Below, piece by piece: positions 3,001 to 30,000 of a stretch of 51,046 nucleotides of DNA (positions are counted from its first letter, which is position 1; each line of letters starts with the position of its first letter). Made by a program: the position numbers. Source of the stretch: Leucoraja ocellata (Eukaryota); the NCBI GenBank assembly GCA_036785375.1, contig JAWMAR010004428.1, forward strand, positions 1 to 51,046, read 5' to 3'.

Positions 3001-6000
3001 ATGTTCTGGAACTTGTTCACTGATAGTCCTGTGAATGGATAATTAACAAAGGCTCTCGAAAGAGCATTATCTACATGTTAATTTGATATAATGAAACAAA
3101 TTGAAGTATGGTCCAGCTGAGGCACAGGTGAGAGAGGGCAGAGAAACGGGGGTGTGGGGGAGAATGGTGAGCGAGTGGTAGTTACCTAATATTGGAAAAT
3201 TCAATGTTCATACCGCTGGGTTGGAAGCTACCCAAGCGAATGTGTGGGTTGTTTTTTCAGTTTGCATGACGCCTCACTCTGGCTATGGAGGAGGACCAGG
3301 ACAGAAACGTTTATGTTGGAACATGAAGGAGGTTAAAATGGTTAATCACCGCGAGATCCAGTAGGCCTTGGAGGATTGAGAGAAGTTGTCCGGAAAACTG
3401 TGGGCAAGACTCTGCTTGGTAAAGTTGATGTACAGGAGGTGGCATCGAGAACACCGGATACAGTAGGTGAGGTTAGAGGAGGTGCACTTGAACATCTGTA
3501 TTATCTGGGAGGACTGATGGGGTCCCTGGATGAAGGCAAGCGAGGAGATATAGGCACAGGTATTACATCTCCTGCGTTGCAGCGGAACGTACTTGGAGAG
3601 GGGCAGGTTTGGGTGGGGAGGGAGTGTGAATGGAGGTTGTGTGGAGGGAGAGGTCTCTGCGACCAGCAACATGGAGTGGAAATGGGATGATGTAACTGTG
3701 GAGAGAACGCATTGGAGGTGACGGAAATGTCGATGATGCGTTGGTTGCGGAGGCTGGTGGGGAGAAAGGGGAGAATCATGGGAACTCTAACCTGGTTCCA
3801 TCTGGAGGAAGAGGAGACGAGAACAGAAATACGGACTACGAAGGAGACGCCGATGAGGAATCCATGACAGCACGTGTAGGGAAGGGGGAGGGTGTGGACA
3901 ATTACCACATCTTGGATGCCCTAGAATGGAAAGGCTCATCTTGGGAGCAGATGCGACTGAGACGGAGGAATTGAGAGCAGGAGCTGGCGTCTTTGACAGT
4001 GGTGGAGTGGGAGGAAATGTGGAATAGATTACTGTGGGAGTCAGCATGTTTGCAGAACACATACTTTTGGCCTTATTTTACTCTCCCTATATGATCACTT
4101 GGTTACCGGTTTCATGATTTCCCAATTATCCCCTTGATGCCTATTTCCATGTACTTACTGATGAGAATTGGATTTTGCAAATTCAAAGTAAATCGTATAA
4201 TCTGACTTATTATCCAATGTACATTTATCACCCTGGTCTTGATGATGTTTCCCGCTCATTACTAAGCTTTCACAATTAGACTTATGTTCTGCAATGTCTA
4301 GCCTGTGTCTTTAGCTCACATCTTGAGACCACGGGCAATCAACGTGGTGCTTTGTTTTAGTGTCTATGGGATTTGTATGTATGCTCGGACAAAATATGAA
4401 CACATTAATATCGAATTCCACCTGAAGTATTTATTATGCTTGTTCAATTCTTACATTGAGCGAGATTGAAACAGTTCATTGCGACACCAAAGCAAGGTAA
4501 AGCATGATAAGAACAAAGTAACATTCATTTTAACCTGCACAATCTTAAGCATTTACGTGGAATGGATAAAAACGCTTACAAATTAAAATTAACACGCGTT
4601 TATTGATTAGGAAAAAAAAGATCTTTCTTCCAGAAGAAGAATGACGATTAAATATGTTTTTCTACACCTGTCCAGAGTGCAGAGGAACATGTTTTCTTCC
4701 AAGGTTTAGGGCAAAAAATCAAACCAAGTGGTTTAAAATGAAGTCAAAGATTCTGCTTGTGATAAGTTGGTGAGTGATATCAATGCTGTGAAGATCGGCT
4801 TGTCGATCTTGCAGGAAGGGTGAAAGGCACGTGCTGTCTGATGAAACGCCGAGCGTTTGCACCATTTTAAGCCAGGCTTTGGAAACAAGGTATCATGCTA
4901 GATTCACCTGGGAAAGAAAACAAAGCAAATATTATTGGGCCAGCTAAAATCAAGATTTAACATGAATTAAAAAATGATTTTCGTAATATTCGAGTCATGG
5001 AGTCATACAGCCCTGAAACAAGATGTTTGACTTAACTTGTCAATTCCAACCACAGATCCCACCTTAGCTGCTCCCACGTTTGGCTCATATCCATTTAACC
5101 TAACCTGCCCATGTACCTGTCCAAGTATTGTTTAGAAGCGGTTACATTGCCAGTCTCAACTACCTCCAGCTCGTTCCACGTATCGTCAACCATCTGAAAT
5201 AAAAGTTTGCCCTGTCACCTTAAATCTACCACTCTCCCCTTAAACCTATGTACAGTAATTCTTGATATCCTATCTCTAGCTAAAAGGCACTGTACATCTG
5301 CCCTATCCGGGTCCCTTCATCATCTTATACACCTCTATTAGATAACCCGCAGCCTCGTACGCTCCAAGGAACAATGCCCTAATCTGGCCAGCCTTTCCCT
5401 TGATCTCAGCCGCTCAATCTTGGCAATACCCGTGCAAATCGTCTCTGCTCTCTTTTCAATTTAATGACATGCTTCGTGTAGCAGGTCGACCAAAAATTGG
5501 ACGGCGTGGGGGCCGTGCAACAGAATAGCCAGCAGTGCGGTTTTTATGTACAACAATTCTTTTTTTTGGTAAAAAGGGGATTTTGTGTGCGGTGACTAGA
5601 ACCCGTGTATGTTGGAGGCTCCACACCCCCCCCCCCCCCCCCCCCCCCCATCCCCCATATGGTTCACATTGCAGTTGTGAATGACACGTTGTTCGAGTAA
5701 GAACAAAACCGTCCGTGGGCAACTTTCTCTGAACATTTCTTTTCTTTTAGCAAATAATATTTAAAGCAGGAAAGTGAATATAAAACAACGCAGTGGGTGG
5801 AATATTTAGCTGAGGATTGGTGATTCTGGCATGTCAGAGACTGACTCACCACCAATGTCCACGTCACCGCCGGCAACTGTTAGCATCAGAAGGTCATCGG
5901 CGCCACCGTCCGTCGGGAACTGACCGCCCGGACAATCAATGGCTTTACTCTCAGGATCGTCATGGTCACCAGGAACTAGATCTAGGAGGAAGTATAAACC

Positions 6001-27000: not shown

Positions 27001-30000
27001 TTGCCATTTTCCTTTAACCGATTTTCAAGAAGTGGGGAAAGTCTATTTACGTTCACAGTTTCAAACCCGCGTTACAATTTGTGAATCTAGATAATGTAAT
27101 TCAATTCTATGCCTTTCACCGATTGCACAAACTCGGCCCGTGGACAATGCAGTGGACAATTGATCGCATGCACAATAGGCTCATTAATTTAGTGTTATAT
27201 CTCACGAAGTAATAATAATATAAACAGCACAATCGTATCTGACGATTTGGGAATCATTAGGATCATATTTTCTCAGACGTGTATTACGATTATTCAAGTA
27301 TTTAATGCACACGGAAGCAGTACCATTACACATCATGTATAAAACACAGTTCCCATTCTAAACTTCTAAGGACAAGAAGGAGACCATTCAGCCCATCGGC
27401 TCCATACCAAGCACTGTACAACAGTCTCGTTGATTTAATTTACCCTCTCCTTATTTCCTTTCATTCGGGCCCATCAACACTTCTTTCGTCCGTTTGACCA
27501 TTCTACTCAGATAATTTACAGTAGGTAATTAAACTACGTAGCAACAAATCATTGGGATGCGCGAAGAAACGCGAGCACCCGGGCAAACGCGCACAGTCAC
27601 AGGGAAGATGCAAGTGTAATAGCGTGTTATACAGCACCGGTGGTAAGGAATGAACCGAGATCGCTACAACTGGGTGGAAGCAGCGGTAGTAAAATTAAAT
27701 AGAGGATACCGATAACGTGCTCCTTCCAACCAGTAGAGCCACTGCAGGCAGCGTCATAGACCCGACTTCAATGCCGACCTCGGGTGCTGTCAGTGTGGAT
27801 TTTGCACGTTCTCCTAGTGCCTGTGTGGGTTTCCCCCGCGCGTTCTGTTTTTGTCCTACATTCAAAACCGGGCATTTACCCACTGTAAATATTCCCTCAT
27901 GTGCATGAGTGGCAGAATCTTCGGGGAGTTGATGAGAACGGGAAATATAAAACAGGATTAATGATGCAATTGGATGTTTGCTGCTCGCCTGAGACTCGGT
28001 GGTCAAGGGGTCTTTCCATGTTGTTTGTTTAAACCAGAATCTGCAGTTCCTTCCTACACATTTACTTAGATGCCAACGTGGTGTCAATTACACAGGCTCC
28101 AACAGTATTCAATGACGTGATGTTATCTTAACGACAAAATCAGAAGCAAAGTTGGTGTTTGATTTAGCCAGCGCCCAATTTCTGCCGATAATTCACGGAT
28201 GAATATGTCCTGCTTTTGTTTTCTGATTTATATAATGAGGTGGACGGGAATGGAGAAACAGCAGCGGAATATATGCCTGGATTTATCTATAAAGCATCAA
28301 ATGAGATAAATCTTCAAAAAAAAAGAAGTAAAACTCTGAAACTCTCAACAGAGAGAAAACAGAGGTGAGTTCTGTACATCAGTCCCAACGTGGACTGTTT
28401 TACTTTCCTCAGAAGCTGCGGCCCCGCCGAAGGTTCTGTTTGCGCGTCTCACTGCCTCATTATGTATTTAACACGAGGTATATGTAGGAGGTAAAATATC
28501 AAGGCGAAATTTGTGACGGAAATCTGCACTGAACTTTTAACCAACATAGAACAAGTGAAAAGCAATTTAAATAAAATTGCAACATCTCTCTAACTGCGAT
28601 TCTCCACCGAAACAGAATGGAGAATGTACAAATGCCCCGAGAAATAAATGTGTTGCTACTAATAGCCGGACACGCATAGTGCCAAACTGAAAACTCCGTT
28701 GATATATAATGTGACGCATTTGAAGATCATTGACCCTGTGTGGAAATGTCAGCGTCAATATCAGCGAAAATTAATAAAACCTTTCCACCAACAGGTTACT
28801 AACTACATTTTATAAATATGCTCAGTTCACAGTGTGACATGGTGGATAAAAATACCTGCAACTGATCACTATCAGCGGCAAGAATCTGTGTGCGGCTTCA
28901 GTCAGCAAAAGCTGCAGCTTTGGATGCTGTTGTTCACCTCAAGGAGTTTATACTCTCCGGACTCCGATGTACTCTGCCCCAACAGTGACCGCCCTATACC
29001 TCTGATAAATTCAGATTAATAATCTGTTTCTGAATTGCAGTACACAAGACCCGAGCCTTGCGGGTTGACTGATCTGTGACTGAAGAAAATTCCCGTGGAT
29101 GAAATATCACGTTTAAATCTGTTTTCAAAAATCGGAATGGGAAGTTAAATGTGTTAATCTTGGCGACATTATCCAAGTATGTAGCTTATTCCGACGGAAT
29201 TGTGCGACTGTTAAACAAGGACACAAATAGCAAACATTAGAAAATAACTAATTAATTATAGAAAGCAAATAACACATTTCAATATTCCATTCAGCCGTTG
29301 TCAACGTGAATGAGCCTATTGTTTTAATCCACTCTGCTCCTGTGCCCTCATTACAAACACCCAAAGGCCTGATCTGGCCAGGTGGAAAATTCACACGTGA
29401 AGACATTTTTCATCACTTTAATAGATCACTATGTTTTCATCACAACATTTAGAGATACAGACATAAAGGGCTGCAGTAACCCAGCGGGTGAGGCAGCATC
29501 AGTTTGAAGAAGGGGGGCGATTTGAAACGTCACCTATCCATGTTCTCCAGAGAAGCTGCCTGACACGATGTGTTATTACAACAAATTGAGTTTTTTTTGT
29601 AAACCAGCATCTGCAGGCCCTCGTGTCTCCATTCGGAGATACATATTTTCTGATCGACATATCAAACAGAAACAAACTGAAGTTAGCTGTTAATAGAAAA
29701 TGCAGGACGTGGAGCCAGTGGAAGCAACTGAAAAACGTATCGGTATTTCATCAAACGCAACTGAATATTCTGCAGAAAATTCAATATAGGCCAATCGATT
29801 TCAAAAGAAAGGAGATGTAAAGATTGCCGAAAGTCTACTCGATCAGGCAATGTGCATTTCCCTTTGATGGAGTTTATAACATAAACCTTAACCAAAACCG
29901 TGAACATTGAGAAACTATACGATCTACTGAACGTGGCACTAAATAGAAGCGTCAATGAGGTGGACGGGAATTGAGAAACAACAGCTGAATATGTGCCTGA

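What the first reader, a model, noticed from the sequence alone, without database searches (positions are those of the whole stretch)
4867..27266. Complete WC1/SCART-like signalling SRCR receptor in a probable cartilaginous fish
Seen: 7 single-exon SRCR domains, a short linker exon before the last domain, a TM, and a four-exon tail with FYEAIYEEID and QIEYYT. Established: ruminant WC1 is a gamma-delta T-cell co-receptor and pattern receptor that signals through a membrane-proximal YEEL tyrosine. Inference: this is a WC1/CD163c-like lymphocyte co-receptor rather than DMBT1, which would place the system at the base of jawed vertebrates. Most leader and tail exons are missing from the ORF track.
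[Added by the scan's program, not by the reader: the finding's places include an assembly gap (unread letters, written N; its length is only estimated) at 14039 to 14254. Whether the letters on both sides are continuous or in frame is not known: test that first.]
Basis: partly seen in the sequence, partly recalled or inferred. Interest (0 to 1): 0.72.

Follow-up and report, generated by a model that had tools for sequence, protein, structure and literature searches.

The report
Seven-domain SRCR membrane receptor gene, one frameshift
This is a minus-strand gene for a membrane receptor with seven scavenger-receptor (SRCR) domains and a tyrosine signalling motif like that of WC1/SCART immune receptors, but as assembled its third domain is one base out of frame, and its host species and cell type could not be checked.

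Summary
The anatomy is largely real. On the minus strand, seven single-exon SRCR domains all pass Pfam's cutoff (88-120 bits), and there are no others in the window. They are followed by a 75-nt interdomain exon before the last domain, a one-exon transmembrane segment, and tail exons carrying FYEAIYEEID and QIEYYT.

"Complete" does not hold. SRCR3 is 314 nt, while the other six exons are multiples of 3. In the frame set by its only usable acceptor it reads KHRPRLVGG and then reaches a stop. The tail exon 2 to exon 3 junction is out of phase as drawn, although in-phase alternatives exist. The leader is only the best candidate. The N gap lies in an intron between two phase-1 exons.

The architecture fits the CD163 family and, within it, the WC1/CD163c-alpha pattern: a hinge exon before the last domain, a separate TM exon, a multi-exon tail, and YEEI matching Y-(Q/E)-(D/C/E)-(I/L). 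It does not fit DMBT1. Per-domain sequence and fold scores, however, tie DMBT1 with CD163, and no WC1 or SCART references were available.

Taxon, lymphoid expression and co-receptor function remain untested. Verdict: a new member of a known kind, of moderate interest.

The parts
27206..27266 (-). Candidate leader/signal exon (20 codons, MILMIPKSSDTIVLFILLLL), ending at a phase-1 donor TTC|gtgaga
   Evidence: It is the only ATG-initiated piece in 22400-51046 (minus strand) with an 8-residue KD of at least 3.0 that ends at a phase-1 GT. The donor scores -1.3 on a crude matrix. It is unverified.
22023..22379 (-). SRCR1 exon (357 nt, phase 1-1). It has 6 Cys (C2 and C7 both lost) and a 14-residue Tyr/Asp-rich insertion.
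   Evidence: Pfam 97.3 bits. Boundaries. Alignment. AF2 mean pLDDT 82.5, with the insertion below 50.
20038..20349 (-). SRCR2 exon (312 nt, phase 1-1, 8 Cys)
   Evidence: Pfam 94.5 bits. Boundaries. Donor TCTG|gtgagt scores 6.2.
16895..17208 (-). SRCR3 exon, 314 nt (one base short of a 1-1 exon). The apparent 1-nt deletion is placed near 17183/17182. The phase-1 frame reaches a stop at 16967-16969. The domain frame is otherwise intact with 8 Cys.
   Evidence: length mod 3 = 2; MAFFT places a 1-base gap after CTGGTGGGT. Pfam 96.1 bits in the domain frame. The best PDB match is CD163 domain 5, whose N-terminus HREPRLVGG resembles the out-of-frame start KHRPRLVGG.
14773..15087 (-). SRCR4 exon (315 nt, phase 1-1). 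It has 6 Cys (C2 and C7 lost) and 5 N-glycosylation sequons.
   Evidence: Pfam 88.2 bits.
14039..14254 (.). Assembly gap (216 N) inside the SRCR4-SRCR5 intron
   Evidence: The flanks are simple sequence and no SRCR-like piece abuts the gap. It was not filled.
12827..13141 (-). SRCR5 exon (315 nt, phase 1-1, 9 Cys)
   Evidence: Pfam 120.1 bits.
12379..12696 (-). SRCR6 exon (318 nt, phase 1-1, 8 Cys)
   Evidence: Pfam 107.3 bits.
12227..12301 (-). Interdomain (hinge) exon, 75 nt, phase 1-1, reading AEMPETTRGKDCDGGNESKSRRLP. It has a GC-AG donor CAG|gcgagt.
   Evidence: The GC donor scores 8.2, and no GT donor in that stretch passed the cutoff.
11262..11573 (-). SRCR7 exon (312 nt, phase 1-1, 8 Cys), membrane-proximal
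   Evidence: Pfam 116.7 bits.
9325..9456 (-). Short stalk, transmembrane segment and stop-transfer RRQSARR, in one exon (132 nt, phase 1-1)
   Evidence: 19-residue KD 2.6 for VCTTLGILLIAEFVALVII.
8318..8419 (-). Tail exon 1 (102 nt, phase 1-1), AELRARGFGFYEAIYEEIDGTLPGNKFSQMDDS. It holds YEAI and YEEI.
   Evidence: The motif appears in 0.8% of within-exon shuffles.
6503..6613 (-). Tail exon 2 (111 nt, phase 1-1), which holds QIEYYT. It has a weak donor GAG|gttggt.
   Evidence: donor score 1.0.
5850..6037 (-). Putative tail exon 3 (acidic, DDLLML). Its 5' edge is unresolved: 6037 needs phase 2, while 6020, 6008, 5981, 5975 and 5942 are phase 1. It has a strong donor GGTG|gtgagt.
   Evidence: The repeat at 6055-6149 lies just upstream. 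There is no homology support (atlas 0.82).
4867..4907 (-). Putative tail exon 4 (ESSMIPCFQSLA, then stop TAA)
   Evidence: It has a good acceptor tttctttcccag| but rests entirely on exon 3 being real.

Best explanation
WHAT IT IS
This is a CD163-family (group B SRCR) type I membrane receptor gene on the minus strand. Its exon order is:
1. leader
2. seven one-exon SRCR domains
3. one hinge exon before the last SRCR domain
4. one TM exon
5. a tail of two to four exons

Within the CD163 family its gene plan and tail motif are closest to the WC1/CD163c-alpha (SCART) branch.

LIKELY MECHANISM (INFERRED, NOT SHOWN)
- The glycosylated SRCR array binds ligands, microbial or self, at the cell surface.
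- The membrane-proximal YEEI tyrosine, the second tyrosine of the tail, is phosphorylated by Src-family kinases and docks their SH2 domains. The receptor would then add to signalling from an antigen receptor, as WC1 does.
- The same YxxI motifs could also drive endocytosis.

STATE OF THE GENE
As assembled, the gene carries a one-base frameshift in SRCR3. This copy is therefore one of three things: mis-sequenced at that base, a recently disabled member of the family, or expressed only by skipping that exon (SRCR2 and SRCR4 are both phase 1).
For: - 7 of 7 SRCR ORFs pass Pfam, and there are no other SRCR pieces in the window.
- 6 of 7 SRCR exons are multiples of 3, and all have phase-1 boundaries.
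- Five of the seven domains have at least 8 Cys, and two have lost the C2-C7 pair together. Herzig 2010 describes this loss for the family (PMC2906472, section 9).
- There are 13 N-glycosylation sequons in the ectodomain exons and 0 in the tail exons.
- The TM hydropathy is 2.6, with RRQSARR following.
- The hinge exon lies before the last SRCR, as in WC1, where hinges follow domains 3, 8 and 10. WC1 also has a single-exon TM and a tail of 4-5 exons (PMC2681482; PMC3511184).
- YEEI fits Y-(Q/E)-(D/C/E)-(I/L), the motif shared by WC1 and CD163c-alpha (PMC2906472, section 10). The motif appears in 1.4% of within-exon shuffles, and only twice in 57,805 six-frame residues of the window.
- WC1 signalling needs its second tail tyrosine (PMC3511184), and WC1 is phosphorylated by Src-family kinases (PMC8356672).
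- SRCR1 folds as an SRCR domain (pLDDT 82.5; TMq 0.81 to solved SRCR structures).
Against: - The SRCR3 frameshift gives a premature stop in the spliced frame.
- Pairwise scores do not place the domains nearer CD163 than DMBT1. DMBT1 is ahead for SRCR1 (103.0 v 100.2), SRCR2 (105.1 v 97.2 for the best human CD163 domain; pig CD163 SRCR5 scores 102.8), SRCR5 (131.5 v 129.4) and SRCR7 (112.8 v 110.2). CD163 is ahead for SRCR3 (108.9 human and 118.0 pig v 92.0), SRCR4 (85.6 v 83.3) and SRCR6 (120.7 v 112.3). The fold search also ties them.
- The membrane-proximal domains do not match CD163 domains 8 and 9 in order. SRCR6 is best against D2 and SRCR7 against D7.
- Tail exons 3 and 4 have no support beyond splice signals, and the exon 2 to exon 3 junction is ambiguous.
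- The leader donor is weak.
- There is only one such gene in 51 kb, with no array.
- There are no expression data.
- The donor scoring matrix was written from recalled consensus frequencies and only ranks sites.
Confidence: 0.68

Rival explanations
1. The frameshift is real and this copy is an unprocessed pseudogene. On this view it is a recently disabled member of a CD163/WC1-like family and makes no full-length receptor.
For: - SRCR3 is 314 nt and reaches a stop in the phase-1 frame.
- No canonical acceptor restores the frame while keeping the whole domain.
- The alternative SRCR2 donor 4 nt downstream fell below the scoring cutoff.
- Several other junctions are weak: the leader donor, the tail-2 donor and the tail-3 acceptor.
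- Incomplete or irregular family members are reported in chicken and platypus (PMC2906472, sections 9-10).
Against: - Every other exon is open with canonical boundaries.
- After the shift, SRCR3 stays open for 104 codons, keeps all 8 Cys and scores 96.1 Pfam bits, within the range of the other domains. Any disabling event is therefore very recent, or the missing base is an assembly error.
- The assembly has gaps nearby.
- Skipping SRCR3 keeps the frame.
Confidence: 0.35
2. It is a CD163A-like endocytic scavenger receptor of macrophages or other myeloid cells. The YEAI/YEEI motifs would serve as YxxPhi sorting signals rather than as a lymphocyte co-receptor signal.
For: - The best multi-domain PDB matches are CD163.
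- SRCR3 is clearly closest to CD163 domain 5 (108.9 and 118.0 v 92.0 bits for DMBT1).
- CD163A also has an interdomain exon and a tyrosine motif, and its short tail mediates internalisation (PMC2906472, sections 3, 5 and 10).
- YEAI and YEEI both have the Y-x-x-hydrophobic form (sequence).
Against: - There are seven SRCR domains, not nine.
- The hinge lies before the last domain, not before the last three. The CD163 spacer lies at about 643-676, between domains 6 and 7 of the PDB chain.
- The motif is YEEI, not YREM. Herzig 2010 found no significant tail identity between CD163A and the WC1/CD163c-alpha tails.
- The tail is spread over at least two further exons, whereas bovine CD163A has a two-exon cytoplasmic domain, one exon of which also encodes the TM.
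Confidence: 0.2
3. It is a DMBT1/SSC5D-type secreted mucosal SRCR agglutinin, and the TM and tail 'exons' are chance ORFs.
For: DMBT1 single domains are marginally the best pairwise match for 4 of 7 domains and are the top fold hit for SRCR1.
Against: - No spacer exons lie between SRCR1-6, and only one 75-nt hinge is present.
- No CUB or ZP match was found in 10 of 10 downstream ORFs tested.
- The TM exon has the same phase 1-1 design and good splice sites, followed by a stop-transfer motif.
- The family-specific tail motif is unlikely by chance.
- The score margins over CD163 are only 2-8 bits.
Confidence: 0.04

Closest known systems
[quoted passage not shown]
   Same: - Each SRCR domain is a single exon.
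- A hinge (interdomain) exon lies directly before the last SRCR domain.
- The TM segment is a single exon.
- The tail is spread over several exons (four if exons 3-4 are real).
- The second tail tyrosine sits in Y-E-E-(L/I).
- Some domains have lost the C2/C7 cysteine pair.
(PMC2681482; PMC3511184; PMC2906472.)
   Different: - It has seven domains, not 6 or 11.
- It has one hinge, not three.
- The motif is YEEI rather than YEEL.
- There is no multigene array in this 51-kb window.
- The diagnostic N-terminal 'a' domain and the b-c-d-e-d' cassette could not be tested.
- Expression is unknown.
CD163c-alpha / SCART1, SCART2
   Same: It is a type I multi-SRCR receptor (eight domains in cattle, m-l-b-c-n-d-e-d') with an interdomain exon and the shared Y-(Q/E)-(D/C/E)-(I/L) motif (PMC2906472).
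   Different: - Bovine CD163c-alpha has a two-exon cytoplasmic domain, one exon of which also encodes the TM. Here the TM exon ends 7 residues after the membrane span and the tail lies on further exons.
- The diagnostic m, l and n domains were not testable.
CD163 (M130, CD163A)
   Same: It is the best multi-domain match among solved structures. SRCR3 is closest to CD163 domain 5. Both have group B SRCR domains, a TM segment and a tyrosine motif in the tail.
   Different: CD163 has nine domains, its spacer follows domain 6, its tail motif is YREM, and it is a macrophage haemoglobin-haptoglobin receptor (PMC2906472).
DMBT1 (SALSA / gp340)
   Same: Individual SRCR domains are as similar to DMBT1 domains as to CD163 domains, at 83-131 bits. 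The fold TMq is 0.81.
   Different: DMBT1 is secreted, has spacer exons between its SRCRs, and carries CUB and ZP domains (these DMBT1 features are recalled, not taken from a call). Here there is a TM exon and tail, and no CUB or ZP domain was found.

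Membership tests
Group B SRCR superfamily | SRCR domain (Pfam PF00530) | tested here: met
   7 of 7 ORFs score 88.2-120.1 bits against a cutoff of 26.1.
Group B SRCR superfamily | Each domain is encoded by one exon and has 6-8 cysteines, including the C1-C4 pair | tested here: met
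   There are 7 single exons with phase-1 boundaries. Cys counts are 6, 8, 8, 6, 9, 8, 8. C1 and C4 are invariant columns.
CD163 family (CD163A, CD163b, CD163c-alpha, WC1) | Multi-SRCR ectodomain, then a TM segment, then a cytoplasmic tail | tested here: met
   The exon order and phases agree. TM hydropathy is 2.6. This is not transcript-verified, and SRCR3 is frameshifted.
CD163 family (CD163A, CD163b, CD163c-alpha, WC1) | A separate exon for the interdomain (hinge) sequence | tested here: met
   A 75-nt phase 1-1 exon lies at 12301-12227 and needs a GC donor. The literature basis is PMC2906472, section 5.
CD163 family (CD163A, CD163b, CD163c-alpha, WC1) | Membrane-proximal 'e' and 'd-prime' domain types, assigned by phylogeny | not testable with these tools
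   No WC1, SCART or CD163 reference sequences are stored. By pairwise score, SRCR6 is best against CD163 D2 and SRCR7 against D7.
WC1 / CD163c-alpha branch | Cytoplasmic Y-(Q/E)-(D/C/E)-(I/L) motif | tested here: met
   YEEI is at 8364-8375. The chance estimate is 0.014. The motif definition is from PMC2906472, section 10.
WC1 | Single-exon TM, and a tail encoded by 4 or 5 exons | tested here: inconclusive
   The TM is a single exon and tail exons 1-2 are sound. Exons 3-4 rest on splice signals only, and the 2-to-3 junction is ambiguous.
WC1 | N-terminal 'a' domain and the b-c-d-e-d' cassette | not testable with these tools
   This needs reference domains, and none were available.
WC1 | Multigene array; expression on gamma-delta T cells | not testable with these tools
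   Only one SRCR gene lies in the 51-kb window. There are no expression data.
CD163c-alpha (SCART) | [quoted passage not shown] | tested here: not met
   The TM exon carries only RRQSARR after the membrane span, and the tail lies on at least 2 further exons. The feature is from PMC2906472, section 5.
CD163A (M130) | Nine SRCR domains, spacer after domain 6, YREM tail motif | tested here: not met
   There are seven SRCR domains, the hinge lies before the last domain, and the motif is YEEI.
DMBT1 | Secreted, with spacer exons between SRCRs and CUB and ZP domains (feature list recalled) | tested here: not met
   A TM exon and tail are present, with a single hinge only. 0 of 10 downstream ORFs and 0 of 10 upstream or intronic ORFs hit CUB or ZP. 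Only ORFs of 78 aa or more downstream were tested, so short exons could be missed.

The most novel reading that the evidence does not exclude
The missing base in SRCR3 is an assembly error and the contig does come from a cartilaginous fish. The locus would then encode an intact WC1/SCART-type hybrid pattern receptor and co-receptor. Its Src-docking Y-E-E-I tyrosine, hinge-before-last-domain layout and multi-exon tail would already have been fixed in the common ancestor of jawed vertebrates. It would mark a gamma-delta or innate-like T-cell subset in sharks, rays or chimaeras.
Probability: 0.12. Interest if true: 0.7.

Novelty: new member of a known kind. Interest (0 to 1): 0.42.

Why it matters
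WC1 and SCART receptors are the best-studied case of germline-encoded pattern receptors that also act as co-receptors for the gamma-delta T-cell receptor. In the papers I read, they are traced only to mammals, birds and monotremes (PMC2906472). A CD163-like gene also marks a T-cell subset in cod (PMC9276791, passages).

A gene with the same exon plan and the same tail tyrosine motif in an early-branching jawed vertebrate would push the origin of this receptor design back to the base of the group. It would also give a concrete marker to look for in shark or ray T-cell data.

Against that, similar 'M130-like' gene models are probably already present in automatic annotations (my recollection, not checked). 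The species is also unverified, and this copy is not intact as assembled.

Tried and rejected
- **Per-domain phylogeny.** As a substitute I used all 10 PDB sequence searches for a 7 x 9 score matrix against CD163 domains plus the single-domain DMBT1 entries. It does not discriminate, except that SRCR3 is closest to CD163 D5.
- **Fold search of SRCR1.** DMBT1 and CD163 tie.
- **Protein atlas on tail exon 3 and tail exon 1.** The best scores were 0.82 and 0.83, which is chance level, so nothing was learnt.
- **Pfam on whole frames of the downstream flank.** The tool rejected these because of stop codons. I sent stop-free ORFs instead. The only hit was a sub-threshold RVT_1 match (18.6 bits against a cutoff of 29.6).
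- **Rfam and tRNA scans.** No hits.
- **ITAM search.** None was found in the tail exons. The two tyrosines are adjacent YxxI motifs, not an ITAM.
- **Rescue of the SRCR3 frame.**
  - The GT 4 nt downstream of the SRCR2 donor fell below the cutoff.
  - Internal phase-1 AGs at 17140 and 17125 would delete the first strands and C1, and by my reading of the sequence contexts printed they lack a pyrimidine tract.
- **Acceptor at 6098 for tail exon 3.** It is in phase, but it lies inside a dispersed repeat with 7 other copies.
- **Literature on this family in sharks or cartilaginous fish.** One search found 0 papers. Searches listed only unrelated papers, judged from titles and abstract openings. 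One search was too loose to be informative.
- **Taxon.** No tool here holds vertebrate genomes, so 'cartilaginous fish' stayed unchecked.

Full report
SCOPE AND LIMITS

The spliced model was examined exon by exon throughout. Full-length predictions (signal peptide, topology, whole-ectodomain fold) were therefore not made.

Homologues of this gene in other species, and the identity of the species itself, stayed unchecked. Supplementary files of papers were not consulted, and the figures of Herzig 2010 (domain maps, tail alignment) are not held. The window does not look human to me: its SRCR domains are roughly half identical to human CD163 (46% for SRCR1 against human CD163 chains in the fold search), and its introns are full of transposon debris.

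1. THE OBSERVATION

The gene lies on the minus strand.

- A stop-to-stop ORF list shows seven SRCR-like ORFs. All seven match Pfam SRCR at 88.2-120.1 bits against a cutoff of 26.1.
- An HMM built from the seven domains and run against every six-frame piece of at least 15 residues in the 51,046-base window recovers exactly those seven, with E-values from 1e-50 to 1e-44. The next hit has E=1.2. There is no eighth domain, no second gene and no SRCR fragment next to either N gap.
- The exon boundaries read from the sequence and tabulated are:

| Exon | Coordinates | Length (nt) |
|---|---|---|
| SRCR1 | 22379-22023 | 357 |
| SRCR2 | 20349-20038 | 312 |
| SRCR3 | 17208-16895 | 314 |
| SRCR4 | 15087-14773 | 315 |
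| SRCR5 | 13141-12827 | 315 |
| SRCR6 | 12696-12379 | 318 |
| SRCR7 | 11573-11262 | 312 |

- Every SRCR exon has an AG acceptor that leaves two leading bases and a GT donor that leaves one trailing base. This is phase 1-1, the classic design of group B SRCR exons.
- The linker exon (12301-12227) is 75 nt, phase 1-1, and lies between SRCR6 and SRCR7. Its donor is CAG|gcgagt, a GC-AG intron. On a crude position matrix it scores 8.2, and no GT donor in that stretch passed the cutoff. I wrote that matrix from recalled consensus frequencies, so it only ranks sites.
- The TM exon (9456-9325, 132 nt, phase 1-1) encodes a short stalk, a hydrophobic span (19-residue Kyte-Doolittle mean of 2.6) and RRQSARR.
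- Tail exon 1 (8419-8318) holds FYEAIYEEID and tail exon 2 (6613-6503) holds QIEYYT. Each motif occurs once in the window.
- The ectodomain exons carry 13 N-glycosylation sequons and the tail exons none, which fits a type I topology.

(a) SRCR3 is frameshifted.
- It is the only SRCR exon whose length is not a multiple of 3.
- Its only usable acceptor (aaaaacag|GG, exon start 17208) sets a frame that reads KHRPRLVGG, a normal SRCR start. That frame then runs through nonsense to a stop at 16967-16969. The rest of the domain (KDRCSGRVEV... to ...LICS, 8 Cys) is in another frame.
- A nucleotide alignment of the seven exon starts places a single-base gap in SRCR3 right after CTGGTGGGT, near 17183/17182. 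The exact placement is uncertain by a few bases.
- The best PDB match of SRCR3 is CD163 domain 5, whose own start HREPRLVGG (shown) mirrors the out-of-frame start. That supports a one-base loss from an ordinary exon.
- No canonical alternative keeps the whole domain in frame. The GT 4 nt downstream of the SRCR2 donor fell below the scoring cutoff. Internal phase-1 AGs at 17140 and 17125 would remove the first strands and C1.
- Skipping SRCR3 would keep the frame, because SRCR2 and SRCR4 are both phase 1.
- The shifted domain is otherwise undamaged (96.1 Pfam bits). The lesion is therefore either very recent or an assembly error, and I cannot tell which.

(b) The junction from tail exon 2 to tail exon 3 is out of phase as drawn.
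- The only tail-2 donor that passed my scoring (GAG|gttggt, score 1.0) leaves phase 1, whereas the acceptor at 6037 needs phase 2 to read the long acidic ORF. Read in phase 1, it gives AFKTI and a stop (my reading of the sequence).
- Phase-1 acceptors into the same ORF exist at 6020, 6008, 5981 (the best pyrimidine tract, 12 of 14), 5975 and 5942.
- A further phase-1 acceptor at 6098 lies inside a roughly 95-nt dispersed repeat (6055-6149) that has seven other copies in the window.
- Tail exons 3 and 4 therefore rest on splice signals alone. The atlas search gave chance-level scores for them.

(c) The leader is only a candidate.
- 27266-27206 is the only ATG-initiated piece in 28.6 kb upstream with a strongly hydrophobic core that ends at a phase-1 GT.
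- The exon side of that donor is weak, with a score of -1.3.

(d) The gap.
- The gap at 14039-14254 lies within the SRCR4-SRCR5 intron. There are 518 nt of intron on one side and 897 nt on the other.
- The flanks are AT-rich and CA-rich simple sequence. The only long open piece running into the gap has no SRCR character.
- Both neighbouring exons are phase 1, so the frame does not depend on the unread letters.
- If the estimated 216 nt is right, a whole SRCR exon would not fit, but a short hinge exon could.

3. WHAT IT IS

The domains are group B SRCR. Each is a single exon, and the C1-C4 pair is invariant. The cysteine counts are 6, 8, 8, 6, 9, 8, 8. SRCR1 and SRCR4 have lost C2 and C7 together. 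Herzig et al. 2010 describe the same paired loss in CD163-family domains (PMC2906472, section 9).

Several SRCR domains, one hinge exon, a TM segment and a tail place the gene in the CD163 family as those authors define it (sections 3, 5, 8-10 read).

Three features point to the WC1/CD163c-alpha branch rather than CD163A:

- **Hinge position.** The hinge lies directly before the last domain. WC1 has hinges after domains 3, 8 and 10 of 11 (PMC2681482, passages). In the human CD163 chain the spacer lies between domains 6 and 7, at about residues 643-676.
- **TM and tail exons.** The TM is a separate exon and the tail lies on further exons. WC1 has a single-exon TM and a tail of 4 or 5 exons. Bovine CD163A and CD163c-alpha have two-exon cytoplasmic domains, one exon of which also encodes the TM.
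- **Tail motif.** YEEI fits the Y-(Q/E)-(D/C/E)-(I/L) motif that Herzig 2010 found in WC1 and in all but one of the CD163c-alpha-like tails examined. CD163A has YREM and no significant tail identity.
  - The motif appears in 0.8% of shuffles of tail exon 1 and 1.4% over all four tail exons. It occurs only twice in 57,805 six-frame residues of the window.
  - Its tyrosine is the second of the tail. Counting from the end of the hydrophobic span, it is roughly residue 23. In WC1 it is the second tail tyrosine whose phosphorylation is required (PMC3511184, passage).

4. WHAT DOES NOT SEPARATE THE CANDIDATES

As a substitute I scored each domain against the nine domains of human CD163 and the single-domain DMBT1 entries. 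All scores are in bits.

| Domain | Best CD163 domain | Best DMBT1 entry |
|---|---|---|
| SRCR1 | D7, 100.2 | 103.0 |
| SRCR2 | D9, 97.2 (pig SRCR5 102.8) | 105.1 |
| SRCR3 | D5, 108.9 (pig SRCR5 118.0) | 92.0 |
| SRCR4 | D7, 85.6 | 83.3 |
| SRCR5 | D9, 129.4 | 131.5 |
| SRCR6 | D2, 120.7 | 112.3 |
| SRCR7 | D7, 110.2 | 112.8 |

- DMBT1 is marginally ahead for four domains and CD163 for three. Only SRCR3 shows a clear margin.
- The AlphaFold model of SRCR1 (mean pLDDT 82.5, pTM 0.77) matches DMBT1 and CD163 domains equally, with TMq 0.81 for both.
- The case against DMBT1 therefore rests on architecture, not on domain similarity. There are no spacer exons between SRCR1-6. A TM exon with the same phase design is present, together with a tail.
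- No CUB or ZP match was found in 10 of 10 of the largest downstream ORFs, or in 10 of 10 upstream and intronic ORFs. Short exons would escape that last test.

5. HOW IT MOST LIKELY WORKS

Shown:
- the domain types
- the exon plan
- the topology signals
- the tail motif

Inferred from the WC1 literature:
- A surface receptor whose SRCR array binds ligands. Family members bind bacteria and other ligands (PMC2906472, section 3).
- A membrane-proximal tyrosine that is phosphorylated by Src-family kinases. WC1 is phosphorylated by fyn, blk and lyn (PMC8356672, passages).
- On this model the receptor augments antigen-receptor signalling when the two are co-ligated.
- That pYEEI is the preferred ligand of Src-family SH2 domains is recalled textbook knowledge and comes from no call.

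Alternative reading of the same motifs:
- YEAI and YEEI also have the Y-x-x-hydrophobic form of endocytic signals, and putative exon 3 has an acidic DDLLML stretch. An endocytic, CD163A-like role is not excluded.
- Nothing here speaks to cell type.

6. COMPARISON AND NOVELTY

- The gene works like, and is built like, a WC1/CD163c-alpha receptor. Membership of the CD163 family is supported on every feature I could test.
- Membership of WC1 or of SCART specifically is open, because the diagnostic domain types (a; m, l, n; e, d') need a phylogeny.
- It fails the CD163A and DMBT1 definitions.
- In the held library I found no paper tying this family to sharks or other cartilaginous fish. One search found 0 papers, and searches listed only unrelated papers. 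A CD163-like gene does mark a T-cell subset in cod (PMC9276791, passages).
- I expect automatic annotations of fish genomes already carry 'M130-like' models. That is recollection and was not checked.
- The 'cartilaginous fish' label could not be tested. The transposon remnants and the dispersed repeat remind me of elasmobranch genomes, but that too is only recollection.

7. VERDICT

- This is a real and largely well-read gene: a seven-SRCR, WC1/SCART-like member of the CD163 family.
- It is not demonstrably complete, because SRCR3 is frameshifted, the distal tail is unproven and the leader is unverified.
- The lineage claim and the lymphocyte co-receptor role remain hypotheses.
- Novelty: a new member of a known kind. 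Interest: 0.42.

Noticed in passing
window 22746-23968: A GC-rich minisatellite (22-nt unit, about 50 copies, 80% matches) lies in the intron between the leader candidate and SRCR1. It ends about 370 nt upstream of the SRCR1 acceptor, and local GC reaches 0.68.
   Followed up: partly
window 22023-22379 (SRCR1), residues about 88-106 of the exon: A 14-residue Tyr/Asp-rich insertion (DYDY...DYDYD) lies where cysteine C7 would be. It is predicted to be disordered (pLDDT below 50) on an otherwise confident SRCR fold. It resembles tyrosine-sulfation sites, which is recollection and untested.
   Followed up: partly
window 12827-13141 (SRCR5) and 12227-12301 (hinge exon): SRCR5 has a ninth cysteine (GFCGQS) and the hinge exon has a single cysteine. 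These two odd cysteines might form an extra disulfide bond or link receptor chains.
   Followed up: no
window 6055-6149, with copies at 48787-48876, 43059-43152, 11619-11697, 16154-16224, 31373-31453, 16103-16136 and 24657-24686: A dispersed repeat of about 95 nt is present in both orientations at 77-87% identity. One copy abuts putative tail exon 3 and supplies an in-phase acceptor at 6098.
   Followed up: partly
window 50189-50420 and 50427-50533: A second assembly gap (232 N) is flanked by a GT/CA dinucleotide run. It lies outside the gene.
   Followed up: no
window 34352-34778 and 49725-50014: There are two more tandem arrays: a 24-nt unit with 17.5 copies and a 45-nt unit with 6.4 copies. 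They produce long spurious ORFs on both strands.
   Followed up: no
window 35185-36376, 40167-40520, 46113-46553, 36-371, 3346-3786: These ORF remnants look like retrotransposon and DNA-transposon debris. Only one reaches even a sub-threshold Pfam match (RVT_1 at 18.6 bits against a cutoff of 29.6, at 36092-36376). No intact neighbouring gene was found in either flank.
   Followed up: partly
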